NCBI GenBank assembly: GCA_947589075.1
Contig: CANQBS010000003.1
Location: forward strand, 23,467-87,466
Reading direction: 5' to 3'
Length of the DNA stretch: 64,000 bases
Source: an uncultured Acetatifactor sp.
GTDB lineage: Bacteria; Bacillota; Clostridia; Lachnospirales; Lachnospiraceae
Shown here: piece by piece, positions 20,081-60,313 of the stretch
Layout: every line of letters starts with the position of its first letter
Position numbering within the stretch: position 1 is the first letter of the stretch
Notes under the pieces: generated by a model
Databases searched by the model: none
Seen by the model: the letters and a program-made list of their open reading frames with translations, nothing else
What the model was told of the DNA's origin: nothing
Position numbers and translations under genes: made by a program

Positions 20081-20126
20081 TTTTCTTCCTCTCATATCAA
20101 TATCGGGTTGTTAATAAATTTGTAAC

Positions 20127-21446: not shown

Positions 21447-22193
21447 TTAAAATACCACGTCAAAATTCATCGTTGTATCCTTATATATCCGATACCCGTC
21501 TATTGTATCGAAGAGGATATAGTCATAATCCAGCAGACTCCCCTCAAATTTATCTTCCTTCGGAAGGATCACATAATGACACTGATATTCCTTGGCAAGC
21601 TTTGCAAGAGAGGACACATCTACGGTTTCTTGGTGCATAAGATTGCTTAATTCATCACTGCCCCATCCGAATATTTCACGGCCGTAGGGCATACGGACCA
21701 GGGCAGTATATTGACGCACATAATAGAGCATCTCATCCGGGAAAAGCGCTCTCACCTCTCTTCCCGGAATGATGATGGCGTCGCATATATCCACCACCGT
21801 CTGGGGCACATGATACTCATTTTCCGCTTTTACGATCCCCGAAGACCGATAAACATAACTGCCTGACAGCACCAACAGGATCATACAGACCACTGCCGTC
21901 AGGATGCGGGCGTTTCCCCTGGCTCTTCCGCATATATGAACCGCCGCATACGCTATGGTCATGGTAATCGGCAGCAGCCACAAAAGACGCCAATAGATTT
22001 CTTCCATTAAGCCTATAAACCAGGCAAATACGGGATTAAAAAAAAGCAGCAACAGAATACAGGGAACATATACAAACAGGATCCGCACATGCTTTCTTTT
22101 TTCCTGAAGCAGCAGGTAAATCACAGATAACAAATACCAGCCTACGATCAGTCCATTTCCCATAAACTCACGAAACATTTCAAGAGATCTCAT
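21447..22193 (-). CDS. Membrane protein with C-terminal soluble domain, function unknown
   Basis: Four or five N-terminal helices followed by a soluble domain of about 130 aa. GGAAAGGGGA RBS upstream. The last gene of the operon before the convergent terminator region. Confidence 0.6.
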   Translation of the reverse strand: MRSLEMFREFMGNGLIVGWYLLSVIYLLLQEKRKHVRILFVYVPCILLLLFFNPVFAWFIGLMEEIYWRLLWLLPITMTIAYAAVHICGRARGNARILTAVVCMILLVLSGSYVYRSSGIVKAENEYHVPQTVVDICDAIIIPGREVRALFPDEMLYYVRQYTALVRMPYGREIFGWGSDELSNLMHQETVDVSSLAKLAKEYQCHYVILPKEDKFEGSLLDYDYILFDTIDGYRIYKDTTMNFDVVF

Positions 22194-22222
22194 CAAAATT
22201 TCCCCTTTCCGCCAGGGAACGT

Positions 22223-23290
22223 CTAATTATTGAAATAAAAATACAGGGCGGCATAGCATAGTGCCGGAAGGCAGCTGAGCAGTACAGGTATCAGCAGCTT
22301 CCACCGGCGATAACAGATGCAGCCACACATTCCCGTTATCCCTAACAGGATACAGGACAGCTCCGCCCCCTGTGTGCTGCAGAGACAGCCTGCCGTTACC
22401 GCTGCAGTCAAAAGAAGCCAGAGCATCCCTTCCACCTTCTTTTGTTTCTGAATCCTTTCCAGGATCTGAAAAAGCAGGAAAAAAATAGCCGGAATGATGA
22501 TACTGCCCAAAACCGCCTTTCCCTGCCTGCTCCTGACGATCAGGAACCGCTCCGCCGTATATGCGGAATAACTCCCGAATATTACGAGAATTTCCGTAAA
22601 GACCAGAAAAAGAGGAAGTTTTTCTTCCCTTTTATCCCACAGTTTACAGCCTATCAGGTAAAAAATTCCATAAGCCATAGGAATCAGCATGAGGGGAACC
22701 GCCACATGAGCCACTGTTACAGAAGGAATCCCTGATAATCTGGCAAGAAGAGCGATCCAAATGGGAAACGGCGCCAGTCCATGTCTTGCATTCAGTTCAG
22801 TGGTTTCTCCTGTATATGGCAAAAAGGAATAAAGCTTATTGCTTTCTTCTGCCGCCGTAGCTTCAGCGACATAATAAGCATCATCTCCGTCGCTGAATGC
22901 CAGCCTCACCGCCTGTATCATTTGAAACGCCAGCAGCAGGAAAAAAAGTCCCCAGAAAATGTAATGCAGGCGACTTTTGTTCTTGGAAGAACCCTGCAAA
23001 ACAAGATCAGAGTTTTCAACAGCCTTCAATCGCAGCCTGGAGCGAGTGCACACGCCCAGAGAACACAGCAGCAAAACCACAGTCAGCACAACATACACTA
23101 TGAGCATATCCGACAATACCGGCCGGAAGATGATAAATGGAATACACACCAGCTGAAAGAGCGCCCACAGAAAGATCTGTCCCATTACCCATTTAAAGAT
23201 CGGGTCATTTTTCTCTTTTCCCATACCGGCTGCCGGAATATTCCCTACGAAAGCCGGTATCACAAACATCCATATGATCAAAACAGCCAC
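22223..23290 (-). CDS. Polytopic membrane protein, function unknown
   Basis: About 10 hydrophobic helices. GTG start with GAGGT 7 nt upstream. Acidic loop motif FSDGDDAYYVAEA. Confidence 0.6.
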   Translation of the reverse strand: MAVLIIWMFVIPAFVGNIPAAGMGKEKNDPIFKWVMGQIFLWALFQLVCIPFIIFRPVLSDMLIVYVVLTVVLLLCSLGVCTRSRLRLKAVENSDLVLQGSSKNKSRLHYIFWGLFFLLLAFQMIQAVRLAFSDGDDAYYVAEATAAEESNKLYSFLPYTGETTELNARHGLAPFPIWIALLARLSGIPSVTVAHVAVPLMLIPMAYGIFYLIGCKLWDKREEKLPLFLVFTEILVIFGSYSAYTAERFLIVRSRQGKAVLGSIIIPAIFFLLFQILERIQKQKKVEGMLWLLLTAAVTAGCLCSTQGAELSCILLGITGMCGCICYRRWKLLIPVLLSCLPALCYAALYFYFNN

Positions 23291-23354
23291 GGCTTATACC
23301 TCGTTTCCATTCAATCCAATCTCTATAACCCCTTTTTCATCTCCATTATCCGCA

Positions 23355-25139
23355 CTACTTTCCAAACAGTATGAGCAAATCTCCATAAGGAGATTCCTCC
23401 CGGGAAAGCAATATGTCTTTTTTCTTTAGTCCATATTCTTCCTCTAAAATTTTTTCCAGCACCGCATTCTCGGTTTCTTCTCCCGTGTTTTTTACCAGCA
23501 CTACAACCTGTTCCTTTTCTGAAACGGAAGCCTTGTCCTTCCTATGGCACAATTCTTCCGGAGTAAGCAGCAGAGTCTCCCGATAACAGGTAAATTCCAC
23601 TAAATTTTCATAATATCCTGCGCCTTCATAAATACAAATGCAGGGCAGCCCACTATATTCCTCTGTGACTTTTTTCGTAATCTCCAGCTGTTTTTCATAT
23701 CCTTTATACAAGTATTCACCCGAATAACCGCATACATTGAAAAAGCAAAGGACAGCGATAAGGGCTCCGAATATCCAGACCCCGGCCGATATCTTTTCAA
23801 CTATTTTCCAGAGCAGAAGAGTCATCCCCAGCACAGCGAAGGGAAAAAGAGCCATAATATAACGATCTACCATATAAGGCGACATTCTCGCTGCCAGGAA
23901 AAAATAAATACAGACTGGGACCAAAAGCATTCCGGCAAGATTTTTTTCTTCTTCCTTTTCAAAAGTTCTCCTGTGTATCAGAACAAGAACGACTCCTGAC
24001 GCCAGGCAAAGCGCTGCGGCCAGTATCCACCCATTTGCTTCCATTCCCAATATTCCAGACGCCAGGATCTTCCCGAAATTCCACAATCTCGTACCATACC
24101 CCTTCAAACCATTCCGCAGATTCTCCAAGGCTTCCACACCCCTTCCGCTGGAAAACACATCCGACACAGCAAAGGGAAAAACAGCGAGTCCAATGACGGC
24201 AGCAATGATCATTGAGCGGATATATCCCCTCAAAGCTTTCCAATTCCGATCCCTGCAAAACAAAAAGACCACTACGGCAGCCAGACCGATACAGTAAAAC
24301 AGGAAAAAATACTGGGTCCAAAAGCCCATAACAGTCACAAGGATCAGCAGACGGTTCCTTGTGGTCCACTCTTTTTCCTGCCATTTTTTGATATGAAGAT
24401 AAAAGTCTGCCACACACCAGAAAGTCATCATCCCATACATTCTGGTCAGCAGAACCGTTGCGATAGCTCCCGATGACAGACCATAAAGGACGGCTGATGC
24501 CAGACCGGCCTTTTCCAGCCCCAGGCGCTTCCCCAGCTTCATCAGCAGAATACAGCATCCCAGAACACATATCAGATTTATGGAACAGCCCATAAGGGGA
24601 AGGATCTTCCCTCTCACCAGAGAAGAGATGGTATGCAGCACCATAAAATGAAGGGGCGGATGATTATCGTCCTTCACGTTAAAATAAACGGATAAGTAAT
24701 TGAAGGCATCCTCTTCCACCGTAATATAATCATGAAACTCTTTTCCGCTGATCCAGACAGGCTCCTCATAAACGTCTGCCTGATAACCTGCCACCAGGCT
24801 GTTTCCCCTGTTTCGAAGCACGTCTTCCGTCAGTCTCCAGAGATTTCCCATTGTTTCTGTCAGAGAATCCCCCTGTATTTCGTTTTGATAAAGCTTTGCC
24901 AGACGCCCTTGCGGCTGTGTGGGCACGATCCAGGGATTGAACTGGGCGTTTGACAGTTCATAGCTCAAAAGCTCGTCCATATGGTAACCTTCCTTTTGGG
25001 AAATAAAGAAAAGCTGCACCACTGTTACGAGCGCCAAAACCAGAATCTGTAAAGCATACTGTGAAAACCAGAAAGAAAGCTTCCTGATTTTTTCATTCCA
25101 TGCACTATCCGCCTTATTTTCATCCGATGCCGCTCTCAA
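23355..25139 (-). CDS. GT-C-type membrane glycosyltransferase candidate (PMT/ArnT-like)
   Basis: 594 aa and polytopic. YFNVKDDNHPPLHFMVLH resembles the first-loop D/E..HPPL motif of GT39/GT83 enzymes. C-terminal soluble domain. The TTG start overlaps the upstream stop. Confidence 0.55.
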   Translation of the reverse strand: MRAASDENKADSAWNEKIRKLSFWFSQYALQILVLALVTVVQLFFISQKEGYHMDELLSYELSNAQFNPWIVPTQPQGRLAKLYQNEIQGDSLTETMGNLWRLTEDVLRNRGNSLVAGYQADVYEEPVWISGKEFHDYITVEEDAFNYLSVYFNVKDDNHPPLHFMVLHTISSLVRGKILPLMGCSINLICVLGCCILLMKLGKRLGLEKAGLASAVLYGLSSGAIATVLLTRMYGMMTFWCVADFYLHIKKWQEKEWTTRNRLLILVTVMGFWTQYFFLFYCIGLAAVVVFLFCRDRNWKALRGYIRSMIIAAVIGLAVFPFAVSDVFSSGRGVEALENLRNGLKGYGTRLWNFGKILASGILGMEANGWILAAALCLASGVVLVLIHRRTFEKEEEKNLAGMLLVPVCIYFFLAARMSPYMVDRYIMALFPFAVLGMTLLLWKIVEKISAGVWIFGALIAVLCFFNVCGYSGEYLYKGYEKQLEITKKVTEEYSGLPCICIYEGAGYYENLVEFTCYRETLLLTPEELCHRKDKASVSEKEQVVVLVKNTGEETENAVLEKILEEEYGLKKKDILLSREESPYGDLLILFGK

Positions 25140-25989
25140 TCCTCTTTCAGCTTCCTCTCACGATAATTTTCCCAAAGGGACGCATCCTCAAAGTGATACA
25201 CAACATAAGACCCATCCTCATAGACAGGCTGTCCTTCTCGGATCACCGGCTCCCGGGCATATTCCTCCCGCTCTTCGGCGGTCAGCAAAAGAAATACCTT
25301 GCCGATATGCTCCTCTTCATAGTATTTCTTAGGGCTGGACCAGTAAAAGAAATTCAGCTGATCCAGCTTATCCACATTAGCAATCTCCACCGCACCGTTT
25401 GTCAGTTCTGTCATAATGTTGGCGTTCCAGGGAAACGCCCTGATATACGCTGATGAAATTGGTCACTTCATAAGTTTGAAAGTCATATTTTTCCGCAATG
25501 ACCGCCGCCGTCAGCACAAGAGGCACCTGCAGCGCCAAAAGATAACGGACGCCAGACAGACCGCAGATCAAACTTAAAAGGAAGTAACAGAAAAGCATTG
25601 CCGTCTTTTTCGCCTTTTGATATTTGTTTTTTGCGCCTTCCTGCGCCGCAGCATTTTCACTCAGCCGCAGAAACAGACCAAATATAAAACAGATCAAAAG
25701 CAAATGCCACATATAGGTGTTTCCCATCTGCATATGGGTGAGAAACGTTTCGGAAAATGGAAGAAACAGTAAAACAGAGGCTCCATTAAAATCTGGGTAT
25801 ACAGTACTCTGAACTCCGTAGAATAATACCAGCTCTCCGTAGCCAGCCATTTTCCCTCTTCAGCCAGCAGTTTTGAAAAGATCATTTCCGCTGCCATATC
25901 GGAATCCAGCCAGGTCTCCAGATAAAACAGATTAAAAAAACAAGCATCAGAAAAACCAGACCAAGAACAAGCCATGGGATCCGATCCAT
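25136..25989 (-). pseudogene. Frameshifted membrane protein gene (three frame changes)
   Basis: Four consecutive reading-frame pieces tile one coding region. Piece 1 is a 35-aa ORF from the ATG at 25989 (MDRIPWLVLGLVFLMLVFL...). The other three are track ORFs 25694-25975, 25377-25850 and 25136-25414. The first shift sits at a run of 7 T (coding strand, 25934-25940), and one extra T restores ...LVFFNLFYLETW. The third shift, near 25455-25470, is not in a homopolymer. Confidence 0.65.
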
Positions 25990-26043
25990 AATTTTGCTTC
26001 TCTTCCGATTAAATATAGCCGCTGAAGCCTCCCGACTTACTCC

Positions 26044-27174
26044 TTAACAATAAAATTCCTTCACCATATCGCAAATGTAATCCACCTGATCCAGGGTCAG
26101 GCTGTAATACAGCGGCAGCCGCAGCAGTCTCTCGCTTTCCTTCGTCGTATATTTATCCTCGCCATGGAACCTGCCGAATCTCATTCCCGCGGGAGCAGTA
26201 TGAAGAGGAATGTAATGGAAGACCGCCAGGATATCCTTTTCTGCCAGAAAACTCTTTAAAGCAGTCCTTTCCTCAATGTCCTTCGCCTTAATATAAAACA
26301 TATGGGCATTGTGCACACATCCCTCCGGCACCACGGGAAGTTCGATCCTTCCTGCCCGGGCAAGCCCTTCCAGGTTCTCGTAATAACGGTTCCAGCATTT
26401 CAGGCGGGCATCGTTGATCTCCTCCGCCATCTCCAGCTGGGCATAGAGATAGGCCGCATTCATGTCGCTGGGCAAATAGGAGGAACCGAAATTAATCCAG
26501 GTATATTTATCGATCTGTCCGCGATAATACTTGCTGCGGTTCGTTCCCTTCTCCCGGATGATCTCCGCATCCTCCACATATTTAGGATCCTTTATGAGCA
26601 GGGCGCCGCCTTCCCCCATGCTGTAATTCTTGGTCTCGTGGAAACTGTAGCAGCCGAAATCTCCGATGGTGCCCAGAGCTTTCCCTTTATAATAAGACAT
26701 TACTCCCTGGGCGGCATCCTCAATGACCATCAAATGATAACGTTTTGCCAGCTCCATGATCTTGTCCATCTCGCAGGCAACCCCTGCATAATGAACGGGC
26801 GCAATGGCCTTCGTGCGCTCTGTAATGGCGGCTTCGATCAGATTTTCATCCAGGTTCATGGTGTCCGGGCGGATATCCACGAAGACCGGCACCCCGCCCC
26901 TGAGGACAAATGCATTGGCAGTTGACACAAAGGTATAGGCCGGCATGATCACCTCATCGCCTTCCTGGATCTGAGCCAGCATTGCGGCCAGCTCCGTGGC
27001 GTGGGTACAGGATGTGGTCATCAGACATTTCGCCGTCCCCATTTTCTGCTCGATCCACTCATTGCACTTTTTCGTAAAGGGGCCGTCCCCGCATATTTTC
27101 TGGTTTTCCACACATTGACGGATATACTCCATCTCGTGTCCCGTATAGGGCGGTACATTAAAATTAATCTTCAT
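26044..27174 (-). CDS. wecE: dTDP-4-amino-4,6-dideoxyhexose transaminase (WecE/RffA-like, DegT family)
   Basis: MKINFNVPPYTGHEMEYI...ICGDGPFTKKCNEWIEQKMGTAKCLMTTSCTHATELAA...GDEVIMPAYTFVSTANAFVLRGGVPVFVDIRPDTMNLDE is co-linear with E. coli WecE as I remember it. The start at 27174 has AAGAGG upstream. Confidence 0.85.
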   Translation of the reverse strand: MKINFNVPPYTGHEMEYIRQCVENQKICGDGPFTKKCNEWIEQKMGTAKCLMTTSCTHATELAAMLAQIQEGDEVIMPAYTFVSTANAFVLRGGVPVFVDIRPDTMNLDENLIEAAITERTKAIAPVHYAGVACEMDKIMELAKRYHLMVIEDAAQGVMSYYKGKALGTIGDFGCYSFHETKNYSMGEGGALLIKDPKYVEDAEIIREKGTNRSKYYRGQIDKYTWINFGSSYLPSDMNAAYLYAQLEMAEEINDARLKCWNRYYENLEGLARAGRIELPVVPEGCVHNAHMFYIKAKDIEERTALKSFLAEKDILAVFHYIPLHTAPAGMRFGRFHGEDKYTTKESERLLRLPLYYSLTLDQVDYICDMVKEFYC

Positions 27175-27194
27175 ACTCTGCCTCTTTTCCGCGC

Positions 27195-29039
27195 TCATCC
27201 GGCGCTCTGTAATAATATAAATTTCTCATTTTCAAAAGTGATCTCATAATCATACTGTTTTATCCAGTCAAGCAAAAGAGAGAATTTTGCATCTTCTGCG
27301 GTTTCTTCACCGTCAACCGCCCCCTTAAGCCCGATCTCCAAAAGCATCACCGGAGGTTCTCTTTTTCCTTCCGCGATGTCCGCCGCGATTTCCTGCAGAT
27401 CCTCCGCCATCACACTGTAATTATAAGACAGAAGATCCGGCCAGGAAGTAATGGCAAAGGGCATTTGCAGATAATAGGACATCGACGGGATCATTCCGTA
27501 TAAAATAACCTCCTTCCCGGTCAGTCCGTTTTCAGTCACATAGGAAGAAATGGACCGGATGATCTCCGCGCGGTCAGGAGAAGTATAGATTCCTTGGAGC
27601 ACCTCATTTTCTTCTATCCTTGTGTGAAGATTTTCTCCCCCGTTGGCTTCCGAAAATACATACCGGATGCCAAATCCCATACTTTGGATCCCCAACACCA
27701 ATAACATGCAAAGGATCATTGCCTTCACCGGGAAAAAGGATATCAAAATCCTCCTGCCCTTCTGCTGCGCCGTATCCTCCCTCTGTACCGCATCCTCCTT
27801 CTGAACGCCCCTCCCGGTTATCCATAGCCCTCCGGGAAGCCATTTTAAAAACCGACATATCATCCACAACGTAAACGGCGCTACGAAAAACAGGTTATTA
27901 ATGCTGGAATACAGGTGATTATTGCTGCCGAAAGGGGTGATCAGTATCACCAGCATCCCCAGCCCCAGCATCAGCTTATCCCTTCGTTCGGCCCCGGGCC
28001 GCAGTATTGTTACGAGACCGATCAGAAGGGTGGCAGTCAGCAGAAAGGCTCCCCAATGAAACACACTGAGCTTCGTGATGTATTTCAGATTAAACATATT
28101 CCTCATCATTAGATAATAGAATCCCAGGAATACACACACCACATAACCAAATTTTTTCAGTCCTTCCAGCCTGCCTGCCAAAACCGCAAATCCCAGGACG
28201 CCCAGAAAAACAAAAAATACAAGATATCCCAGCCAGATCAGATTCTGCTTATAATCGATCATCTGAGAATATATCATGGAGTATAAGGTATACCCCGGGG
28301 CTTCCGAAGGCATCTCAAACAAACGCCTGATGGCGCTCACATATTCCCCAAAGCCATATCGAAGAGACAAATACCCCAGGCACAGACCGGCGCCCGCCGC
28401 ATATCCCAGGATACACCAAAGGGTTTCCGCCAGAACAGCCCTTCCTTTCTTCCTGCAAAGGAATCCATACGCCCAGACCCCTGCGATCATTCCCATTTCC
28501 GCCAGATTGGGGAACCGGACGAACACATTGACGCCGAGACAGATCCCCGCCAGCACCAGATATTGCTTCTTATCCTCCGCCAGGCCGCAATACAACACTG
28601 CCGTTCCTATTCCGAACAGGAAATAGGTCAGATAATTATACAATAAGGCCGTGGGACACCAGCACAGATTCAGGGCCAGAAGCTCCCCTGCAAAGGCGAA
28701 TAAAGAAGGAATCCTTACTTTCCTGATAAAAAAATAATATCCCGCCAGCGCCATCAGACTCACCAGCAGCCCTGTATAAAGATTCAGCCCCAGCATACGA
28801 TTTCCAAGGGGCAGCCTGGTAAACAGGTTTCCCAGGGCATTCCCAAGGTAGGTGCTGAATACCCACATGGGATCCATCCGGTCCATATACTGAAAATTTC
28901 CGTAATTATATCCTGTATCCCACCATTCCGCCCCTACAAAAATATGCCTGAGAGGGTATAAAAGCAGGATAGCGGGGAAAATAACCCTTTCGCACCAGCC
29001 ATACAGCCCCTTCCAGCCCTGCATTTTTTCCTGAAGCAT
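27195..29039 (-). CDS. Large polytopic membrane protein with C-terminal soluble domain (GT-C-like candidate)
   Basis: About 14 helices. First-loop motif GAEWWDTGYNYGNFQYMDRMD. C-terminal domain of about 150 aa. The start at 29039 has AAGGAAA upstream. Confidence 0.5.
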   Translation of the reverse strand: MLQEKMQGWKGLYGWCERVIFPAILLLYPLRHIFVGAEWWDTGYNYGNFQYMDRMDPMWVFSTYLGNALGNLFTRLPLGNRMLGLNLYTGLLVSLMALAGYYFFIRKVRIPSLFAFAGELLALNLCWCPTALLYNYLTYFLFGIGTAVLYCGLAEDKKQYLVLAGICLGVNVFVRFPNLAEMGMIAGVWAYGFLCRKKGRAVLAETLWCILGYAAGAGLCLGYLSLRYGFGEYVSAIRRLFEMPSEAPGYTLYSMIYSQMIDYKQNLIWLGYLVFFVFLGVLGFAVLAGRLEGLKKFGYVVCVFLGFYYLMMRNMFNLKYITKLSVFHWGAFLLTATLLIGLVTILRPGAERRDKLMLGLGMLVILITPFGSNNHLYSSINNLFFVAPFTLWMICRFLKWLPGGLWITGRGVQKEDAVQREDTAQQKGRRILISFFPVKAMILCMLLVLGIQSMGFGIRYVFSEANGGENLHTRIEENEVLQGIYTSPDRAEIIRSISSYVTENGLTGKEVILYGMIPSMSYYLQMPFAITSWPDLLSYNYSVMAEDLQEIAADIAEGKREPPVMLLEIGLKGAVDGEETAEDAKFSLLLDWIKQYDYEITFENEKFILLQSAG

Positions 29040-29040
29040 C

Positions 29041-30171
29041 CTATTTTCCTTTCTGATCCGGCAGCAGTTCATCTATCCTGCAAAAGAAATCATTTATTCT
29101 CCTGCACAAAGCCAGGCGTCCTATTAAAGCAAACAGCGCCCCCCGCAGCATATCCACGCAAATCCCGATCCCAAAGGCCAAAATCACCGAACCCAGGCAT
29201 CTTGCGCAGAATACCGCCGCGCTGCCCCCTGCCGACGCCCCGAGCCAGGAGGGCCACAGAGTACGGATCTCCCAATGCTCCTGCAGCAGATAAACTCCAA
29301 GAGAATAGGGGGCGATGCGCAGAATGATCCGGGATAGAACGCCTTCCCTGATCTTCCAGTTATAAAAGCCCACGAACAGGCATACCGCCGCCAGAAGCGT
29401 CAGAATATGATTATATCCGCATACAGTGGTAATAAAATATCCGAATTTACCCGTTTTCATATACAGGAACCGAATAAAAAACGTGAGGCAGAACATTGCG
29501 GCACTCAGGATGAAATACAATAAAAACCCTTTTTGCGCCAGTTTTTTTTCTTTCAGCTCCTCCATACCGTACAGCCGCAGATAGGCAGCTACCAGATAAA
29601 CACATATGAACCAGAGCCCGTCGTATCCCAGATTATCCATTGTAAGCTGCACGGGGATCACAGACTTACTGACGGATAAAAACAACAACAGCAGAATTAT
29701 CACCAGACGGAGCTGTTCCTTCTTCATTCCCTTCACCGCAACGCAAAGGATCGGAGAAAATAAATACATGGTTACATATGCGGTGATAAACCAATAGTGA
29801 ACCATCTGAACTGGAAATACATAATAAAGGATCTGGTAGAGCGTCAGTTGTGAAGGATCCAGGATCCCGCAGGCCATTGACGCCAAAGGGATCAGGAGAC
29901 TGTAAAACAGCACCTGACATATGAGCTGAACCAGACGCTTCGTTTTAAAGCCTGATTCCACCAGAAAGAAACCGCTGATCAGCATATAAATATCCACCGC
30001 CACAATGGACAGCAGCTCCAGGACCCATGCCGCATAGCCGTTCGGCCCGAGGCTGCCGGTAAGATCCGGCAGGACGCCGCCCTTATCCAGATAATGCAGC
30101 ATCGTGACCATGAGCATCGCCAGGATACGCAAAAGCTCTATATTGGCCAGTCTCTTTTTACCCGGCGCCAT
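29041..30171 (-). CDS. Acyltransferase family 3 (AT3) membrane O-acyltransferase, with no fused SGNH domain
   Basis: RLANIELLRILAMLMVTMLHYL is the typical AT3 N-terminal motif; about 10 helices. The start at 30171 has GAGGGAGGTGAGG upstream. Confidence 0.8.
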   Translation of the reverse strand: MAPGKKRLANIELLRILAMLMVTMLHYLDKGGVLPDLTGSLGPNGYAAWVLELLSIVAVDIYMLISGFFLVESGFKTKRLVQLICQVLFYSLLIPLASMACGILDPSQLTLYQILYYVFPVQMVHYWFITAYVTMYLFSPILCVAVKGMKKEQLRLVIILLLLFLSVSKSVIPVQLTMDNLGYDGLWFICVYLVAAYLRLYGMEELKEKKLAQKGFLLYFILSAAMFCLTFFIRFLYMKTGKFGYFITTVCGYNHILTLLAAVCLFVGFYNWKIREGVLSRIILRIAPYSLGVYLLQEHWEIRTLWPSWLGASAGGSAAVFCARCLGSVILAFGIGICVDMLRGALFALIGRLALCRRINDFFCRIDELLPDQKGK

Positions 30172-30187
30172 TGCTGCCTCACCTCCC

Positions 30188-31159
30188 TCAGATCCCATGC
30201 CAGTCTCCGGTAACATTTCCTTTGATATTATCCGTCGCTTTGCTGATGATAAACTTCGGGCGTCCCTTCACTTCCTCATAAATTCTGGCAATATAATGGC
30301 CGATGATCCCCAGACTGATCATAATAAATCCGCCGATGATCAGCACAAGCAGGATCACGGTAGTGAAGCCCTCCACCGCTGTTCCGGATAAGAATCTCAC
30401 CATGGTCTGAATCGCCAGAGCCACGCTGAATAAAATGGAAACGACTCCCATGACCGTCACCATCTGCAGAGGCAGGGTGCTGAAAGAAGTCACGTTCCTG
30501 ACCGCGTACTTCATCAGGCTCCAGGCAGACCATTTGCTTGTTCCGAATTTTCTCTCCTGTACCTCATATTTTACGGACGCAGTGCGGAAACCCACCCAGA
30601 AGGACAGCGCCCGAAAGAATGTATTCCGTTCCGGCAGCGCGGTCAGTACGTCCACAACCTTCCTGTCCAACAGCTTAAAATCCGAAGAAGCATTCATATC
30701 CATTTTGATCAGTCCGCTTATGACCCGGTAAAACAATCCCGCCGACAGCTTATGGGCAAGGCTTTCCTTTCCCCTGCTGCTTTTAATGCCTTCTACCACT
30801 TCGTAGCCTTCCTGCCAGAGCTTCCACATCTGGAGGATCACCTCCGGCGGATGCTGCAGGTCGCAGTCCATGACCACCACCGCGTCCCCCGACGCGATCT
30901 GAAGTCCAGCAAATATGCTGGCTTCCTTCCCGAAATTACGGGAGAACTCCACTCCCTTCACCCGCGGATTCTCCCGGGCAGCCTTTTGGATCTCCTGATA
31001 GGTGTTGTCCCTGGAGCCGTCGCTGATAAAGATCAATTCGTGATCGATTCCTGCTTCTGTCAGGCAGTCGGACAATACGCGCACTGTATTCGGAACATTC
31101 TGTTCCTCATTATAGGAAGGAAGTACCACCGATAATAATGACATAACGACCCCCATCAT
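30188..31159 (-). CDS. Polyprenyl-phosphate glycosyltransferase (GtrB/CsbB/DPM1-like GT2 with two C-terminal TM helices)
   Basis: LSVVLPSYNEEQNV...FISDGSRDNT...VVMDCDLQHPPE...two C-terminal helices...GIIGHYIARIY. Confidence 0.85.
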   Translation of the reverse strand: MMGVVMSLLSVVLPSYNEEQNVPNTVRVLSDCLTEAGIDHELIFISDGSRDNTYQEIQKAARENPRVKGVEFSRNFGKEASIFAGLQIASGDAVVVMDCDLQHPPEVILQMWKLWQEGYEVVEGIKSSRGKESLAHKLSAGLFYRVISGLIKMDMNASSDFKLLDRKVVDVLTALPERNTFFRALSFWVGFRTASVKYEVQERKFGTSKWSAWSLMKYAVRNVTSFSTLPLQMVTVMGVVSILFSVALAIQTMVRFLSGTAVEGFTTVILLVLIIGGFIMISLGIIGHYIARIYEEVKGRPKFIISKATDNIKGNVTGDWHGI

Positions 31160-32778
31160 TCCATATTTTCCGTCTTGATATACATGATCCCATCAACGAT
31201 CTGAATGGAATCCGCAGCCGGGAAGCTTCCCATCTTCCTGTAAAATTCTGCATAATAAGCTTCCGCCATGGCCTCCGGCGGCAAAATATTTAAGGTTGCC
31301 CCCAGATAATTTTGAATGAACCTCTGATAATTCTCTCCCCGGTACAATAAAGAATCTCCCGGGATTCCGATCATTCCTGACGTAACTGAGCCTGTGATAT
31401 CGGTAGGGGGATATTCCTCATCCCCTACTACGCCAATCATCGCAATGGGAATTCCCTGATAATAGCCTTCCGTCTGTTCGATGCGGTCCAGCAGGCGCAC
31501 ACAATAAGCATACGTCTTTTCATAACGTTTTGCAAGGTTAGAATAGGCGATATTGTCTGTTACGGCATAATTTAAGATCAGTACCGCCGCCGCTGCCAGC
31601 ATGAGCCAGCATCCCAGGGCTCCTGCGGTGTCCGAAATCCCAAGCTTTTGTCTCTCCCTTTCCCTGCCCTGGTCTGAAGGGATTGCCCCAGTCTCTTCTC
31701 CGGATGCGGACCCGAAGCCGTTACGGGACAAAAAAGCTATCATCAGGATCAAAAACAGCACCCACTGATAACGCATTAAAAGATGATAATTTACATCCGG
31801 CGATACCAGCAGGATCACATTGGCGGCTGCCGGGACCCCTCCTGCCGCCAAAAGGAGGATCAGATAAAACCAAATGCTTTTCCACCATTTTTTGCGGAGG
31901 GCAAGGCGCACCAGGACAAGGAGCGTCAAGCCGGATAAGATCATAACCCCAGCGATAGAAAAAATATTGTGATATAATACATTTCCCTTAAACGTAAAAG
32001 CAAAAAAGTCTCCATACATGGACTTTATAACCGAAAACAATCCTTTTTCTCCCAGAGAGGCCATTCCATTGATTCCCTGATAATCATCCAGAACCTTTCC
32101 CTGAATCACAAGGAGAACCCGAAGCACCGCATAATAAAGGATAATTCCCAGCACTCCCATATACAGGTACTTCATCCCTCTTTGAAGTTTCTCTTTCAGG
32201 GAAAGCTCTGACATGGCTAACATCAGGATCCCATAAAGGGAAAGCAGTACCGCGAAGGGCAAATATGCCTGATAGGTTCCCATGCTCAGAGCAAGACAGA
32301 CCATGCCGCCCAGGAAGCCCCGCCGGAACCTTGCCGTCAGAAGCACGGACAGGATCGCCAGAAACAGCGCCAGCATATAACCGTCCATGGTGAATACATA
32401 AGCAAAGGTGGAGGCAGCCGCCGGAAAGGAAACCAGAAGACCGCTGACCAGTATGATACTGATCCTGCTTTTTATCTCCAGAAATTCCGTCAGGGCAGCG
32501 CTTGCCAGGGCCAGATTCAAAATCGCTATCAGCCCTATCACCCAGGGCAGGGTGTAATAGGAAGAGAACCCGCAGGCCACCGTCAAAAACCATCTGCCGG
32601 AGGTGATCATATTCTGATCGAAATACATGCTGTCCAATCCGTCATGATTGGGGATATCCGATAAAAGCATGGGCATATGAATGAGCAGGCCAAACAGGAC
32701 CGCCGATCCAAAGGCAGTCTTCCACTCCTGCTTTATATGCGACTTTATCCATATCCACGCCTGTTCCGGATTCTTCAT
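31156..32778 (-). CDS. Polytopic membrane protein, GtrII-like glucosyltransferase candidate (GT-C type)
   Basis: LSDIPNHDGLDSMYFDQNMITSGRWFL first-loop motif, about 12 helices, and a C-terminal soluble domain. The stop overlaps the GtrB-like start (ATGA). The start at 32778 lies 7 nt after GAGGAGG. Confidence 0.55.
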   Translation of the reverse strand: MKNPEQAWIWIKSHIKQEWKTAFGSAVLFGLLIHMPMLLSDIPNHDGLDSMYFDQNMITSGRWFLTVACGFSSYYTLPWVIGLIAILNLALASAALTEFLEIKSRISIILVSGLLVSFPAAASTFAYVFTMDGYMLALFLAILSVLLTARFRRGFLGGMVCLALSMGTYQAYLPFAVLLSLYGILMLAMSELSLKEKLQRGMKYLYMGVLGIILYYAVLRVLLVIQGKVLDDYQGINGMASLGEKGLFSVIKSMYGDFFAFTFKGNVLYHNIFSIAGVMILSGLTLLVLVRLALRKKWWKSIWFYLILLLAAGGVPAAANVILLVSPDVNYHLLMRYQWVLFLILMIAFLSRNGFGSASGEETGAIPSDQGRERERQKLGISDTAGALGCWLMLAAAAVLILNYAVTDNIAYSNLAKRYEKTYAYCVRLLDRIEQTEGYYQGIPIAMIGVVGDEEYPPTDITGSVTSGMIGIPGDSLLYRGENYQRFIQNYLGATLNILPPEAMAEAYYAEFYRKMGSFPAADSIQIVDGIMYIKTENME

Positions 32779-32823
32779 TGCCATACCTCCTCGGATCTTA
32801 GCCATTTCGGATCATAAAGGAAA

Positions 32824-43012: not shown

Positions 43013-43062
43013 AGCTGCCTCCATTCTTTACCTGAGCACAGGCATATCCGCTGCATAAGTTC

Positions 43063-47498: not shown

Positions 47499-48734
47499 CT
47501 AATAGTACATCAGTCCCAGGAGCAGGTGCCTGAAATACAGCAGCCCGCACCCCAGATGCCAGCCATAAAAAAGCCACTCTGCCATAAGCAGGTACCAGGG
47601 CTTATCCTTTTTCAGGGTGCTTTTCAGCATCACGAAAGCAGACTCTGCGAAGGCGAAAAACATGCCATGCATATAACCCCAGGAAAAATTCATGTCCCCG
47701 CTTCTGGCTCCGCTTTCACACAGCACCATTACCATGATCAGGCTCACAAGCGCCATTTGCCAGGAAAAGCGATAGGCCGCGTTATCCCTGATTTCCCGGC
47801 GATGGATCAGCAGCACGATAACAGGGAAAGCCCATCCCAGGAGGATTGCCAGAGGGATATTCCCGCAATGCATCCTCCAGGCAGTCAACCACCCAAAGGC
47901 TATTCCGGATCCATCCTGTTCTTTGGGACCAAACATTCCAAAAAACTGATACAGCAGATCACAGAAGGTGGGCACAAAACATAACCCCAGGCAGACCGTC
48001 GCCTTAAAATTGGAAAACCTGCTCCGAAACAGCCGATAGAGCATGATCAGGCCTGCGGCTGCCGCCAACAACAGGGTAAAGGTGGGCTTCGTCATGGTCG
48101 ACAGCAGCAGCATAACGCTGAAGATAAGCCCCTTCTTCCAGGAAAATTCTTTTTCGTAGCTTTTCAAAAGCTGCACAAACAGGAAAAAGCATATAATGGA
48201 AAAGGGGCGGACTGCCAGATAGGTGGCATTGTGATATGGATTCGGGGTAAAAACCCCCCGATATCTTCCATAAATCCCCGGAAGGGAATCTAAAAGCACC
48301 GGCGAGAGCATGGAAACCAAAAACAGGGTGATCACCAGAATATCCACGATCCCCCTCAAAAGCCATTCAGAACATTTCCCTGGGATTTTACCCCAGAGGT
48401 CTTCGATCTGTCTGTCAGCTGCCGCCTTTAACAGCACCACGCTCAGACTGTTTAACAGGGTCAGGGCCACCGTAATTGCCCACTCTGCCGGCATAAAAAG
48501 ATCAAAAAAAGCTCCCAGCTTAAAAAATACAGGATAGGAAAAATCCGCTCCGCTCTCCAAACCCTGCATTTCCAAAAGATATACTCCCATATCCGAATGA
48601 TACCACTGCTCATTTCCGATTGCCTGGTGATAAAATAAATAGCCCGTTGCCGCGGTATAACCCATGAGCAGCAGTCCGAAAAATATCCGATCCCAAAGCA
48701 ATATTCTTTTTTCTTCGCTTCTTCTTTTTTTCAT
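47499..48734 (-). CDS. Polytopic membrane protein (polymerase/ligase- or GT-C-like candidate), function unknown
   Basis: 411 aa, about 11 helices, loop motif WYHSDMGVYLLEM. Last gene of its operon. Confidence 0.5.
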   Translation of the reverse strand: MKKRRSEEKRILLWDRIFFGLLLMGYTAATGYLFYHQAIGNEQWYHSDMGVYLLEMQGLESGADFSYPVFFKLGAFFDLFMPAEWAITVALTLLNSLSVVLLKAAADRQIEDLWGKIPGKCSEWLLRGIVDILVITLFLVSMLSPVLLDSLPGIYGRYRGVFTPNPYHNATYLAVRPFSIICFFLFVQLLKSYEKEFSWKKGLIFSVMLLLSTMTKPTFTLLLAAAAGLIMLYRLFRSRFSNFKATVCLGLCFVPTFCDLLYQFFGMFGPKEQDGSGIAFGWLTAWRMHCGNIPLAILLGWAFPVIVLLIHRREIRDNAAYRFSWQMALVSLIMVMVLCESGARSGDMNFSWGYMHGMFFAFAESAFVMLKSTLKKDKPWYLLMAEWLFYGWHLGCGLLYFRHLLLGLMYY

Positions 48735-56676: not shown

Positions 56677-56845
56677 AAATTCCCTGCCCTCTCATCCATA
56701 ATCATCTATAATCACTGCGCAGCCTGATCACTCGCTCGATCTCCTCTTTAAACCACAGTTGACTTAAAGAGCTTTGCGATCCGTTTCACACGACGTCCAA
56801 ACAGCGGCCGTGCATTTATCCCGGCTCCCAGAATAACTCTATCCG

Positions 56846-58914: not shown

Positions 58915-58980
58915 CAGTTCACTCCACGCCCATGCCGAATAAATCAGGCTTTCGAAGCCGCGCTTACGCGCTTTACGACT
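58915..58980. repeat. GC-rich hairpin repeat, homologous to 52191-52285
   Basis: See 52191-52285. It lies between the stop of the 454-aa gene and the pseB promoter. Confidence 0.65.
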
Positions 58981-60313
58981 ATTTTTGTTCATTAAATGAC
59001 GATTTCTTTTCTTCCATGAAGGCCGTCACTAAAAGCCCCCAGAATATCGTAATCAAGATGGCATTTTTGTAGTCCTGCATGCCCGATGCAGATAAAGAAT
59101 ACCAGAGGGCGACCACGGCAGACAGCACGCCAAGACAAGTCAGTCCCATCCTTTGGGCATTTGCTGCAAATCCCCTCTTATCTCCATTCCACAAATAAAG
59201 CGCCAGCGCCAAAAGCAATACAAGAGGCAGAATATTTCCGGCATAGTAAACATAGTATTTTGTCAGATTAGGCGTATGATGCTGCATCATACTATAATTC
59301 CAGCCGCTGAAAGTTATGCCGTATCCCCTCAGATTCCATACGATCACGAAAGGGGAAAGGGCATATCCCAGGAGATCCATGGTGAAATCTCCGACTACTT
59401 TTTTAGTGCCAATCCGAAAAGAATCTTTTGCCATCTTCCAATATATGGACTGAGACTGCTTCACCCCATAGGTTTTTTCCATGACCAGCCCAAATTCTCT
59501 GCTTACCTTCCCTGGATCCCTGGAAATTTCAATCAAACTCTCTTCTGAAACAGCTTCCTTTGCCTCTTCGGCCCAAAAAGAACGGTTCACCGAAAAATAC
59601 GGCCAGACGCACCGGTGCAATGCCATAGCCGCAGGAGTTCTGGCCATTCTGCCGCGACTGTGGACTTCTACTGCAGCCGAATCCGTTATTCCCGTTAACA
59701 AACATACCAGAACAGCAGCTATGATCCCCTGGAAAACCATTCTTTTAGGAATTCTTCTCCTAATCATTTTAAAAATCAGTCCTGCAAAATAAATTCCGCC
59801 GCCGAACAGAAAGAATTCCGGAAGCAGCAGTCCTCCCAAAAGCCAGCAGACTGCAGCCTTGATCCATTTTCCATAACGAGAATCATAAAAGCATAATAAC
59901 AACATAAAAACAGCCGGCGACTGCGGAAGCACGGCAAGATTGAACTGTGCCGCCGGCGGCAGCGTCATCAGCCACAAAACCAGCCATATTTTCCCCGGAT
60001 TCTTCCCCGTCAGCTTCCATAAAGTCCAAAAACACAATCCCAACTGCATAAAATAGATCAGGCAATAATAAGGAACCGGACAAAATCTGGAAACCCCTTC
60101 TGCGAACTTGACCACACAGGGATATAAGATCCCCACATATTCGTCCGTTACCAGGGTATCCGCGATCTGACGCAGCTCTTCCGTCTCCGGGAAACTCTGA
60201 AATGTGCTGAAATTCCCGGCAATCCAAAGAGCCCCCAATAGGATCTGTACAAACATCAATATCCGAACCGTCTGATATAGTATACTTCGAACAAATGTCC
60301 CTGCCGTTTTCAT
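58979..60313 (-). CDS. Polytopic membrane protein (GT-C-like candidate), function unknown
   Basis: About 12 helices. First-loop motif TLVTDEYVGILYP. The start at 60313 (MKTAGTF) has AAGGAA 5 nt upstream and clears the upstream stop. Confidence 0.5.
   Translation of the reverse strand: MKTAGTFVRSILYQTVRILMFVQILLGALWIAGNFSTFQSFPETEELRQIADTLVTDEYVGILYPCVVKFAEGVSRFCPVPYYCLIYFMQLGLCFWTLWKLTGKNPGKIWLVLWLMTLPPAAQFNLAVLPQSPAVFMLLLCFYDSRYGKWIKAAVCWLLGGLLLPEFFLFGGGIYFAGLIFKMIRRRIPKRMVFQGIIAAVLVCLLTGITDSAAVEVHSRGRMARTPAAMALHRCVWPYFSVNRSFWAEEAKEAVSEESLIEISRDPGKVSREFGLVMEKTYGVKQSQSIYWKMAKDSFRIGTKKVVGDFTMDLLGYALSPFVIVWNLRGYGITFSGWNYSMMQHHTPNLTKYYVYYAGNILPLVLLLALALYLWNGDKRGFAANAQRMGLTCLGVLSAVVALWYSLSASGMQDYKNAILITIFWGLLVTAFMEEKKSSFNEQK

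What the first reader, a model, noticed from the sequence alone, without database searches (positions are those of the whole stretch)
21447..29039. Run of 'orphan' large polytopic proteins, giving an unusually high GT-C-like density for one locus
Beyond the three paired modules, the window encodes polytopic proteins with no adjacent lipid-sugar synthase. They are at 21447-22193, 22223-23290, 23355-25139 (DDNHPPLH motif), 25136-25989 (decayed), 27195-29039, 47499-48734 and 58979-60313. With the two 770/778-aa paralogues this makes about 13 large integral membrane proteins of unassigned function in 40 kb. Most share the same plan: an acidic motif in the first outside loop (NDELFY, NDDVLM, TDEYVG, HSDMGVY, WWDTGYNY) followed by a C-terminal soluble domain. 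By eye they are too diverged from each other to be recent duplicates. This suggests many distinct acceptor or donor specificities acting outside the membrane.
Basis: inference. Interest (0 to 1): 0.62.

Follow-up and report, generated by a model that had tools for sequence, protein, structure and literature searches.

The report
Cluster of GT-C-like wall-sugar transferases
A rabbit-gut Acetatifactor (Lachnospiraceae) bacterium packs about a dozen large membrane proteins into its cell-wall polysaccharide operon. The two I could model have the fold of enzymes that add lipid-carried sugars to polymers outside the cell, so this is a known kind of system in unusually many, mostly unannotated versions.

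Summary
All seven listed ORFs exist, all are polytopic, and 25136-25998 is a real pseudogene. Twelve of the genome's 145 large polytopic ORFs lie in about 40 kb, where about 1.8 are expected.

The GT-C reading is supported where I could test it. AlphaFold2 models of the 594-aa and 614-aa proteins (pLDDT 85 and 86) match only GT-C enzymes in the PDB, including ArnT, AftA, ALG9/12, STT3/PglB, EmbB and Pmt4. Both have invariant acidic residues just after TM1.

The 355-aa protein is Pfam DUF6077. In 73 of 79 species it is directly followed by the 249-aa partner (4 TM plus an outside domain). This looks like a GT-C split into two genes, but I did not show that by fold. The 411-aa and 454-aa proteins remain unclassified.

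"Orphan" is misleading. The run is the tail of a conserved module, GtrII, GT2, WecE, variable polytopic genes, 594-family, DUF6077, partner, found in six other Lachnospiraceae loci. The module brings its own polyprenyl-phosphate sugar synthase.

The families are unrelated by profile comparison and most have no Pfam or NCBIfam model. The 614-aa family is in 36 of 36 genomes of the genus and the 594-aa family in 21 of 36.

Most likely function: transfer of lipid-linked sugars onto a rhamnan-based wall polysaccharide at the outer face of the membrane. Substrates are unknown.

The parts
21447..22196 (-). 249-aa partner protein: 4 TM helices and a 135-aa extracytoplasmic C-terminal domain. Inferred to be the C-terminal module of a split GT-C enzyme.
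   Evidence: No Pfam or NCBIfam hit. The family has 2078 representative clusters, nearly all 250-270 aa and stand-alone. It directly follows DUF6077 in 73 of 79 species loci, median gap 31 bp. Topology is from hydropathy and the positive-inside rule.
22223..23290 (-). 355-aa DUF6077 protein, about 11 TM. The invariant D134-G-D136-D137 lies in a 49-aa acidic loop predicted to face outside. Inferred to be the catalytic N-terminal module of the split GT-C.
   Evidence: PF19554 at 341 bits against a cut-off of 27. All 80 species homologues are 347-406 aa and never fused. No paper mentions DUF6077.
23355..25139 (-). 594-aa GT-C(A)-fold protein: TM1, then a 135-aa outside loop with invariant H53-M-D55-E56 and D157-D158-N-H-P-P, about 11-12 TM, and a 124-aa alpha/beta C-terminal domain.
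   Evidence: AF2 pLDDT 84.8, pTM 0.87. The top 35 Foldseek PDB hits are all GT-C-fold proteins, with ArnT at TM 0.51/0.55. More than 1000 homologues are all 'hypothetical', and 2 of the 120 listed carry PF13231 PMT_2.
25136..25998 (-). Pseudogene: remnant of a 542-aa polytopic protein family with the motif HWLDSDMAAEM after TM1.
   Evidence: tblastn against L001:8360-9988 gives pieces at 25998-25933 (frame -1), 25936-25772 (-3), 25778-25422 (-2) and 25429-25181 (-3). Residues 78-119 and 283-450 are absent. The sequence is identical in independent metagenome contigs.
26044..27198 (-). WecE-type dTDP-4-amino-4,6-dideoxyhexose aminotransferase embedded in the run.
   Evidence: NCBIfam NF008687 at 637 bits against a cut-off of 375. 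Pfam DegT. It lies directly after the GT2 in L015-L018.
27195..29039 (-). 614-aa GT-C(A)-fold protein: invariant E38-W-x-D41-T-G-Y-N-Y after TM1, about 13 TM, and a 160-aa C-terminal outside domain. It is a core gene of the genus.
   Evidence: AF2 pLDDT 85.7, pTM 0.86. Foldseek hits are ArnT at 1.8e-4, then AftA, ALG9, EmbB, STT3, ALG3 and Pmt4. Present in 36 of 36 same-genus genomes and 0 of 24 genomes of other families.
29041..30216 (-). Acyltransferase-3 family membrane O-acyltransferase.
   Evidence: PF01757 at E 1.7e-24.
30188..31159 (-). GT2 polyprenyl-phosphate sugar synthase (GtrB/ArnC/PgfS type), the likely donor maker for the module.
   Evidence: PF00535. The best NCBIfam hits are PgfS at 280 bits and ArnC at 166 bits, both below their cut-offs.
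31156..32805 (-). GtrII-family GT-C paired with the GT2.
   Evidence: PF14264 at E 1.3e-42.
47499..48734 (-). 411-aa, about 11-TM protein of a genus-restricted, multi-copy family. Invariant D48 and E55 lie in the first outside loop. There is no soluble domain and the fold is unresolved.
   Evidence: No Pfam, NCBIfam or PDB hit for the protein or for the profile of 12 homologues. Present in 32 of 36 same-genus genomes with up to 5 copies, and in 0 of 24 outside.
58979..60313 (-). 444-aa polytopic protein with a TDEY motif in the first outside loop and a soluble insert of about 100 aa. It is a homologue of the gene that follows WecE in the other loci. The fold is unresolved.
   Evidence: 25-31% identity to L003:4720-6216, L016:6738-8144, L018:8614-9984, L001:6686-8350 and others. 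No Pfam or PDB hit.

Best explanation
The run 21447-29072 is the distal end of a long minus-strand operon for a rhamnan-based cell-wall polysaccharide carrying pseudaminic-acid-type sugars, in an Acetatifactor species.

It encodes several sequence-unrelated families of GT-C-fold membrane transferases:
- the 594-aa protein;
- the 614-aa protein;
- a two-gene unit of DUF6077 (355 aa) plus a 249-aa partner, which I infer to be one GT-C split between its catalytic TM module and its last TM helices plus outside domain;
- the dead remnant of a fourth family.

Proposed mechanism, inferred from the established mechanism of GT-C enzymes and multi-component transmembrane glycosylation systems:
1. The GT2 enzymes of the locus (30188, 50454, 56846) load sugars onto undecaprenyl phosphate at the inner face of the membrane.
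2. The lipid-linked sugar or oligosaccharide is flipped. Candidates are the three GtrA genes elsewhere in the genome or the PglK-like ABC exporter at 43063.
3. Each GT-C uses the invariant acidic residues at the start of its first outside loop to transfer the glycosyl group onto the wall polymer. Its C-terminal outside domain would contribute to acceptor recognition.

About ten candidate GT-Cs share three lipid-sugar synthases. Several must therefore share a donor and differ in acceptor or linkage, or act as polymerase or ligase, as WpsH and WpsJ are proposed to do in Lactococcus. The 614-aa family is universal in the genus and so is the best candidate for a core step. The 594-aa family is accessory and so is more likely a decoration.

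Shown here: the genes, their topology, conservation and synteny, the fold of two proteins, and the pseudogene. Inferred: the split-enzyme reading, the donors, the acceptors and the roles.
For: Fold:
- The 594-aa model (pLDDT 84.8) matches ALG12, STT3, ArnT (TM 0.51/0.55), ALG9, DPY19, PglB, AglB, Pmt4, AftD, AftA and PimE.
- The 614-aa model (pLDDT 85.7) matches ArnT, AftA, ALG9, EmbB, STT3, ALG3 and Pmt4.
- Non-GT-C folds reach at most probability 0.47 for ALG6-unrelated hits and at most 0.11 for MFS and ABC transporters.

Acidic motifs:
- D55/E56 and D157/D158 are invariant in 30 homologues of the 594-aa protein.
- E38/D41 are invariant in 30 homologues of the 614-aa protein.
- D134, D136 and D137 are invariant in 26 DUF6077 sequences.

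Donor synthases: three GT2s of ArnC/GtrB/PgfS/AglJ type are in the window.

Synteny:
- GtrII-GT2-(AT3)-(625 family)-WecE-variable polytopic genes-594 family-DUF6077-partner recurs in L001, L003 and L015-L018.
- DUF6077 is followed by the partner in 73 of 79 species, and the 594 family precedes DUF6077 in 47 of 80.
- Topologies are compatible with a split: the DUF6077 C-terminus and the partner N-terminus both face outside, and the partner domain faces outside.
- A second DUF6077 copy on contig C1 follows a GT2 and precedes another protein of 4 TM plus a domain.

Locus context: rmlA/B/C, Wzm/Wzt, Pse genes and a GH25 lysin.

Precedent: GT-A/GT-C systems decorate rhamnan and teichoic acids (PMC8035078), and GT-C enzymes are proposed as polymerase and ligase in the lactococcal model (PMC10821137).
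Against: - No activity, substrate or expression data exist. No RNA run holds this organism.
- Foldseek TM-scores are moderate (0.41-0.55) and sequence identity to solved GT-Cs is 9-13%.
- No sequence method links any of these proteins to a curated GT-C family. Pfam, NCBIfam and PDB profile searches were negative or far below cut-off.
- I did not test the fold of DUF6077+partner, the 411-aa protein or the 454-aa protein. No fused DUF6077-partner protein was seen, so the split reading rests on adjacency and topology, plus unverified earlier notes.
- No GtrA or Wzx flippase lies in the window (and the Pfam scans).
- The GT-C fold also occurs in proteins with other roles, such as PIG-U of GPI transamidase, which is among the hits.
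Confidence: 0.62

Rival explanations
1. The proteins have the GT-C fold but are not single-sugar decorating enzymes. Most would act as polymerases or ligases that move oligosaccharide or polymer blocks from undecaprenyl (pyro)phosphate. Examples would be joining a Pse-containing side polymer to the rhamnan, or the rhamnan to its anchor. The 411-aa family would then be a Wzy/WaaL-like (GT-C class B) polymerase.
For: - The window has no recognisable Wzy, Wzx or ligase, although it has a PglK-like ABC exporter and a sialyltransferase-like GT52.
- The lactococcal model assigns GT-C enzymes to polymerisation (WpsH) and ligation (WpsJ).
- The 614-aa family is single-copy and universal in the genus, as expected of a core assembly step.
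- The 411-aa protein has no soluble domain and is the size of a Wzy.
Against: - The hits for both models are class-A GT-Cs (ArnT, AftA, ALG, STT3). No WaaL, Wzy, RodA or FtsW appears in the hit lists.
- The 411-aa family gives no Wzy_C or EpsG hit even at E 10, for 12 members. A true Wzy_C-like gene elsewhere in the genome is weakly detectable.
Confidence: 0.2
2. Some of the unmodelled proteins (DUF6077+partner, the 411-aa and 454-aa proteins, the 770/778 pair) are not glycosyltransferases at all. They could be flippases or transporters for lipid-linked intermediates, or transferases of non-sugar substituents onto the wall polymer.
For: - They have no family assignment.
- No flippase is annotated in the window.
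- Some partner-family members carry an extra C-terminal domain of about 270 aa (proteins of 523-545 aa). An earlier unverified note calls this domain a phosphodiesterase.
Against: - Each has conserved acidic residues in a predicted outside loop right after a TM helix, which is the GT-C hallmark.
- DUF6077 on contig C1 sits directly after a GT2 lipid-sugar synthase.
- The two neighbours that could be modelled are GT-C.
Confidence: 0.13
3. The run is decaying, non-expressed DNA, made of remnants of a formerly larger glycan locus.
For: One gene (25136-25998) is clearly dead, with three or more frameshifts and about 250 codons lost.
Against: - All other ORFs are intact and have 45-73% identical full-length homologues in hundreds of assemblies, with dozens of invariant residues.
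- Gene order and 4-bp overlaps are conserved.
- The 614-aa gene is in every genome of the genus.
Confidence: 0.03

Closest known systems
Multi-component (three-component) transmembrane glycosylation systems of Gram-positive wall polymers: CsbB/GtcA/YfhO, GtlA/GtlB, L. lactis CsdAB/CD/EF with CflA, S. pyogenes GacI/J/K/L (PMC8035078)
   Same: A membrane GT2 makes Und-P-sugar, and a polytopic GT-C with an acidic motif in an outside loop transfers it to a rhamnan or teichoic acid outside the membrane. GT-A and GT-C genes are often adjacent and sit in rhamnan loci. The GT-Cs show little sequence similarity between systems.
   Different: About ten candidate GT-Cs face three GT2s in one 40-kb locus, instead of 1:1 pairs. 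Most families have no Pfam model (not YfhO, PMT_2 or GtrII). No GtrA or Wzx is in the locus. One unit appears to be split into two genes. Nothing here has been tested experimentally.
ArnT (GT83) and the Arn pathway (ArnB aminotransferase, ArnC GT2, ArnT GT-C), PDB 5EZM/5F15
   Same: It is the best or near-best structural match of both models. The conserved module places a DegT-family aminotransferase directly beside an ArnC-like GT2 and GT-C proteins, as in arnBCT.
   Different: The aminotransferase is a WecE equivalog (dTDP-4-amino-4,6-dideoxyhexose), not ArnB (188 bits against a cut-off of 631). There are no ArnA or ArnD homologues. The acceptor cannot be lipid A in a Gram-positive. Sequence identity is 10-12%, and the window's own proteins give no PMT_2 hit.
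Mycobacterial arabinan and mannan GT-C batteries (AftA-D, EmbA/B/C, PimE, MptA-C), PDB 8IF8, 7BVC, 6X0O, 6WBY, 9DM5
   Same: Many diverged GT-C enzymes share one or two polyprenyl-phosphate sugar donors and build or branch a wall polysaccharide outside the membrane. AftA and EmbB are among the top structural matches of the 614-aa protein.
   Different: The phylum and the polymer differ. The proteins here are smaller (about 600 aa against 1000-1400 for Emb and AftD). There is no evidence here for arabinofuranose or decaprenyl donors.
Lactococcal rhamnan/PSP dual-chain model with GT-C enzymes WpsH (polymerase) and WpsJ (ligase) (PMC10821137)
   Same: The rhamnan is exported by an ABC transporter, and a second glycan built on Und-P is joined to it outside by GT-C enzymes. 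The locus has a conserved part and a variable part.
   Different: No detectable sequence relation was tested or found. The second glycan here involves pseudaminic-acid-type genes and a PglK-like ABC exporter rather than a Wzx.

Membership tests
GT-C fold superfamily (class A: ArnT/PglB/PMT/ALG/Aft type) | Predicted or solved 3D fold matches known GT-C enzymes | tested here: met
   Met for 23355-25139 and 27195-29039 only. Foldseek probability is 1.00 to ArnT, STT3/PglB, ALG9/12, AftA, EmbB and Pmt4, with TM 0.41-0.55.
GT-C fold superfamily (class A) | Conserved acidic residue(s) at the start of the first extracytoplasmic loop | tested here: met
   Invariant D55/E56 in the 594-aa protein. Invariant E38/D41 in the 614-aa protein. 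D134/D136/D137 in DUF6077, though after TM4 rather than TM1. D48/E55 in the 411-aa protein. DEY in 6 of 7 members of the 454-aa family.
GT-C fold superfamily (class A) | Uses a polyprenyl-phosphate-linked sugar donor and transfers it on the outer face of the membrane | not testable with these tools
   Only context is available: three ArnC/GtrB-type GT2 genes in the window, and C-terminal domains predicted to face outside.
Pfam PMT_2 (PF13231; ArnT/GT83, GT39-like) | Score above the Pfam gathering threshold | tested here: not met
   The 594-aa protein gives no PMT_2 hit even at E 10. Only 2 of its 120 listed homologues carry a precomputed PF13231 hit. The NCBIfam LA3751_2_3 'putative glycosyltransferase' model scores 22 bits against a cut-off of 200.
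Pfam DUF6077 (PF19554) | Score above the Pfam gathering threshold over the full model | tested here: met
   22223-23290 scores 341.5 bits against a cut-off of 27, over model positions 7-352 of 354.
Split GT-C (DUF6077 + partner as one enzyme) | Obligate adjacency, compatible topology, fused forms elsewhere, and a joint GT-C fold | tested here: inconclusive
   Adjacency holds in 73 of 79 species and the topology is compatible. No fused form was found among the 120 + 150 + 80 homologues examined. The joint fold was not modelled.
Wzy / O-antigen ligase (Wzy_C PF04932, EpsG) and Wzx (MOP flippases) | Pfam family hit | tested here: not met
   None of the listed proteins hits these families at E up to 10, nor do 12 members of the 411-aa family. 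Fold was not tested for the 411-aa protein.
YfhO (PF09586) | Pfam family hit | tested here: not met
   The 770-aa and 778-aa paralogues give no hit at E up to 10. Their fold was not tested.

The most novel reading that the evidence does not exclude
Acetatifactor and related gut Lachnospiraceae assemble and diversify much of their wall polysaccharide outside the membrane. They would do so with a battery of at least six mutually unrelated, so far unannotated GT-C families that share a few lipid-linked donors, a Firmicute counterpart of mycobacterial arabinan assembly. One branch would be Arn-like: the conserved GT2-WecE pair would make an undecaprenyl-phosphate 4-amino-4,6-dideoxyhexose, which a GT-C attaches to the polymer and so adds positive charge to the wall. 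The DUF6077+partner pair would be a naturally split GT-C whose acceptor-binding half is a separate, exchangeable protein.
Probability: 0.15. Interest if true: 0.7.

Novelty: new variant of a known kind. Interest (0 to 1): 0.45.

Why it matters
Lachnospiraceae are dominant gut commensals, and their surface glycans are immunologically active. The R. gnavus glucorhamnan is the known example (from my own knowledge). Their glycans are also likely phage receptors, yet how they are made is almost unstudied.

This locus shows that a large share of the machinery lies in protein families that no curated model recognises. More than 1000 sequence clusters each exist for the 594-aa, 614-aa, DUF6077 and partner families. 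At least two of these families are GT-C enzymes.

This gives concrete targets for glycan genetics in gut Firmicutes: catalytic residues to mutate, and a core gene versus accessory genes. It would add several families to the GT-C superfamily. It also offers a natural test of the idea that small GT-Cs need a separate acceptor-binding protein, which Rismondo et al. 2021 raised as speculation.

Tried and rejected
- Sequence-only classification failed throughout. Pfam and NCBIfam scans at E up to 10 gave nothing. Profile searches of PDB sequences with A1, A2, A3, A5 and A6 gave only noise. Single-sequence PDB searches for the 770-aa and 575-aa proteins gave nothing.
- hhalign between the family profiles gave probabilities under 10%. 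It also fails to relate the two proteins that Foldseek shows to share a fold. At this alignment depth (Neff about 2-3) it is therefore uninformative, not evidence against a common fold.
- I looked for fused DUF6077-partner proteins to prove the split. The DUF6077 homologue list, a full-library profile search with the partner (only the best 150 shown) and a genome-contig scan (dominated by Acetatifactor) found none.
- The promoter and terminator scan of 20-36 kb was not above background in any useful way.
- No RNA-seq run holds this organism, so expression could not be checked.
- A literature search for DUF6077 gave 0 papers.
- I considered and rejected the idea that the pseudogene is an assembly artefact. 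The sequence is the same in independent runs, and deletions of hundreds of bases are not read errors.

Full report
**What is in the sequence**

The window is contig C3:23467-87466 of a 3.15-Mb Lachnospiraceae genome. The nearest public relatives are Acetatifactor MAGs. The same DNA is found in gut metagenomes, including rabbit gut.

From about 1 to 61 kb almost every gene is on the minus strand and belongs to surface-glycan synthesis (Pfam, NCBIfam):
- rhamnan genes: GTs, a 1479-aa capping enzyme, Wzt 11919-13247, Wzm 13348-14334, and rmlC/A/B at 14374-17178;
- a GH25 lysin, 17231-20095;
- the run under study, 21447-29072;
- an AT3 acyltransferase, 29041-30216;
- a GT2/GtrII pair, 30188-32805;
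- pseudaminic-acid-type genes: PseG-like, NeuB, a GNAT, a cytidylyltransferase, PseC and PseB;
- a PglK-like ABC exporter, 43063-44820;
- a GT52-like transferase;
- two further pairs of GT2 plus a polytopic protein, 48893-51389 and 54949-57802;
- MBOAT and GDSL genes.

**Check of the observation**

The proteins are undetectable to one another by BLASTP, apart from the 770/778 pair at 35% identity. Profile-profile comparison also finds nothing. They are therefore not recent duplicates.

In a six-frame ORF census of the whole genome, 145 ORFs have at least 350 aa and at least 6 predicted TM helices. Twelve of them lie in this 40-kb stretch, against about 1.8 expected.

**The pseudogene**

The 'decayed' gene at 25136-25998 is a real pseudogene. 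An intact 542-aa homologue from a related MAG (L001:8360-9988) aligns to it in four pieces in three frames. Residues 78-119 and 283-450 are missing, and there is a further 42-residue internal gap. Contigs from three metagenome runs of two studies carry the same sequence without indels.

**Fold of the two largest proteins**

Neither the 594-aa nor the 614-aa protein has a Pfam or NCBIfam family. Each has more than 1000 homologue clusters, almost all called 'hypothetical'.

| Protein | AF2 model (30 homologues) | Main Foldseek PDB matches | Invariant acidic residues |
|---|---|---|---|
| 594 aa | pLDDT 84.8, pTM 0.87 | top 35 hits all GT-C-fold proteins: ALG12, STT3, ArnT (TM 0.51/0.55), ALG9, DPY19, PglB, AglB, Pmt4, PIG-U, AftD, AftA, PimE | D55/E56 in the H-M-D-E motif a few residues after TM1; DDNHPP at 157-162 in the same long outside loop |
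| 614 aa | pLDDT 85.7, pTM 0.86 | ArnT (1.8e-4), AftA, ALG9, EmbB, STT3, ALG3, Pmt4; MFS and ABC transporters only at probability 0.11 or below | E38 and D41 in EWWDTGYNY directly after TM1 |

Both end in an alpha/beta domain of about 125-160 aa after the last TM helix. This is the class-A GT-C plan: acidic residues at the start of external loop 1, 11-13 TM helices, and a C-terminal outside domain.

That test is not met for the two proteins I could model.

**DUF6077 and its partner**

22223-23290 is a full-length DUF6077 (341 bits). No paper in the library mentions this family. Its invariant D-G-D-D (134-137) lies in a 49-aa acidic loop predicted to face outside, after a strongly basic cytoplasmic loop.

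The next gene, 21447-22196, has four TM helices and a 135-aa domain predicted to face outside. In 80 loci from different species:
- DUF6077 is 347-406 aa and never fused;
- it is followed on the same strand by a member of the partner family in 73 of 79 cases, median gap 31 bp;
- it is preceded by a 594-family gene in 47 of 80 cases.

The partner family has 2078 representative clusters, nearly all 250-270 aa. A second DUF6077 on contig C1 sits between a GtrB-like GT2 and another protein of 4 TM plus a domain.

Together the pair has about 15 TM helices plus an outside domain, and the two free ends are both predicted to face outside. My reading is one GT-C split into two polypeptides. Earlier agents of this scan reached the same reading from structure predictions in other genomes. 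It is an inference.

**The remaining 'orphans'**

The 444/454-aa protein (58979) is a 25-31% identical homologue of the gene that directly follows WecE in the other loci. It has a conserved DEY in its first outside loop and a soluble insert of about 100 aa.

The 411-aa protein (47499) belongs to a family found in 32 of 36 genomes of the genus, with up to five copies each, and in none of 24 genomes from other families of the order. It has invariant D48 and E55 in its first outside loop.

Neither protein gives any Pfam or PDB signal, even as a profile. Their fold is open.

**'Orphan' is the wrong word**

Six loci from other assemblies (L001, L003, L015-L018; proteins 45-62% identical) show one conserved order. 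It runs (GDSL)-GtrII-GT2-WecE, then one to four variable polytopic genes (the 454-like family, DUF6044, the 542 family and others), then 594 family-DUF6077-partner. A convergent GDSL-like gene and the GH25 lysin follow.

In this window the same module is present. An AT3 and the 614-aa gene are inserted, one variable gene is dead, and the 454-like gene has moved to 58979. Genes overlap by 4 bp at several junctions. The run therefore travels with its own GtrB/ArnC/PgfS-type polyprenyl-phosphate sugar synthase. It also travels with a WecE equivalog (637 bits against a cut-off of 375), which in four loci directly follows the GT2.

**Distribution**

| Family | Same-genus genomes | Genomes of other families in the order | Notes |
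|---|---|---|---|
| 614 aa | 36 of 36, usually one copy | 0 of 24 | core gene of the genus |
| 594 aa | 21 of 36 | not stated | 9 of 151 genera of the family; three distant paralogues elsewhere in this genome, one beside rmlD |
| 411 aa | 32 of 36, up to 5 copies | 0 of 24 | genus-restricted, multi-copy |

**Mechanism proposed**

1. The GT2s load sugars on undecaprenyl phosphate.
2. The lipid-linked sugars are flipped. Three GtrA genes exist elsewhere in the genome and none in the window. The PglK-like ABC exporter is another candidate.
3. The GT-Cs transfer them to the rhamnan-based polymer at the outer face of the membrane.

There are three synthases and about ten candidate GT-Cs. Donors must therefore be shared and specificity must lie on the acceptor or linkage side, as in mycobacterial arabinan assembly. 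Alternatively, some act as polymerase or ligase, as proposed for lactococcal WpsH and WpsJ (PMC10821137). The GT2-WecE coupling resembles arnB-arnC. It suggests, speculatively, a lipid-linked 4-amino-4,6-dideoxyhexose donor.

**Verdict**

The GT-C reading is supported for two proteins, plausible for the DUF6077 pair, and open for two others. One gene is dead.

The kind of system is known. What is new is the multiplicity, the lack of any curated family for most members, the conserved module with WecE, and the apparent two-gene GT-C. No function has been shown experimentally.

Noticed in passing
genome contig C4:47168-48025 (outside the window): An rmlD gene (PF04321, 349 bits) lies here, directly upstream of a distant 594-family paralogue (C4:48140-49798). 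Another first-reader note says rmlD is 'not seen' next to rmlA/B/C in this window. It exists elsewhere in the genome, so the dTDP-rhamnose pathway is complete.
   Followed up: partly
genome contigs C7:42488-44113, C8:35574-37145, C4:48140-49798, C1:91983-92999: There are three further distant paralogues of the 594-aa GT-C family. The C7 copy keeps the KEGFHEDE motif, and the C8 copy lies beside a weak Wzy_C-like 392-aa gene. There is also a second DUF6077, flanked by a GT2 and a protein of 4 TM plus a domain. The genome's stock of GT-C-like genes therefore extends beyond this locus.
   Followed up: partly
window 38383-43024: The 770-aa and 778-aa paralogues are 35% identical. They share an N-terminal TM helix, a beta-rich domain of about 130 aa, a polytopic core with an 'HLxRIEGxKDGLLxGQxPVRI' motif, a C-terminal beta domain and a final TM helix. 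This architecture recalls YfhO, but there is no Pfam hit even at E 10.
   Followed up: partly
L001, L003, L015-L017 (for example L015:7845-9971): DUF6044 (PF19510) proteins of about 600-700 aa occupy the slot just upstream of the 594-family gene in several related loci, and are absent from this window. This is another uncharacterised polytopic family in the same module.
   Followed up: no
window 20269-21312 (+): This convergent 347-aa gene has one TM helix and weak GDSL/SGNH similarity (E 0.0076). It is conserved at the same position, after the partner gene and on the opposite strand, in L003 and L015-L018 at 46-50% identity.
   Followed up: partly
P0389, P0461, P0474, P0485: A few members of the partner family are 523-545 aa, with the partner module at the N-terminus and about 270 extra C-terminal residues. 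I did not check this.
   Followed up: no
record titles (L047, L078, L084, L091, L102, L109): Several loci with 47-49% identical DUF6077 genes come from records labelled Muribaculum, Bacteroidales, Odoribacter, Bacteroidaceae or Gastranaerophilales. Given their similarity to Acetatifactor loci, these look like mis-binned or mislabelled contigs rather than true cross-phylum occurrences.
   Followed up: no
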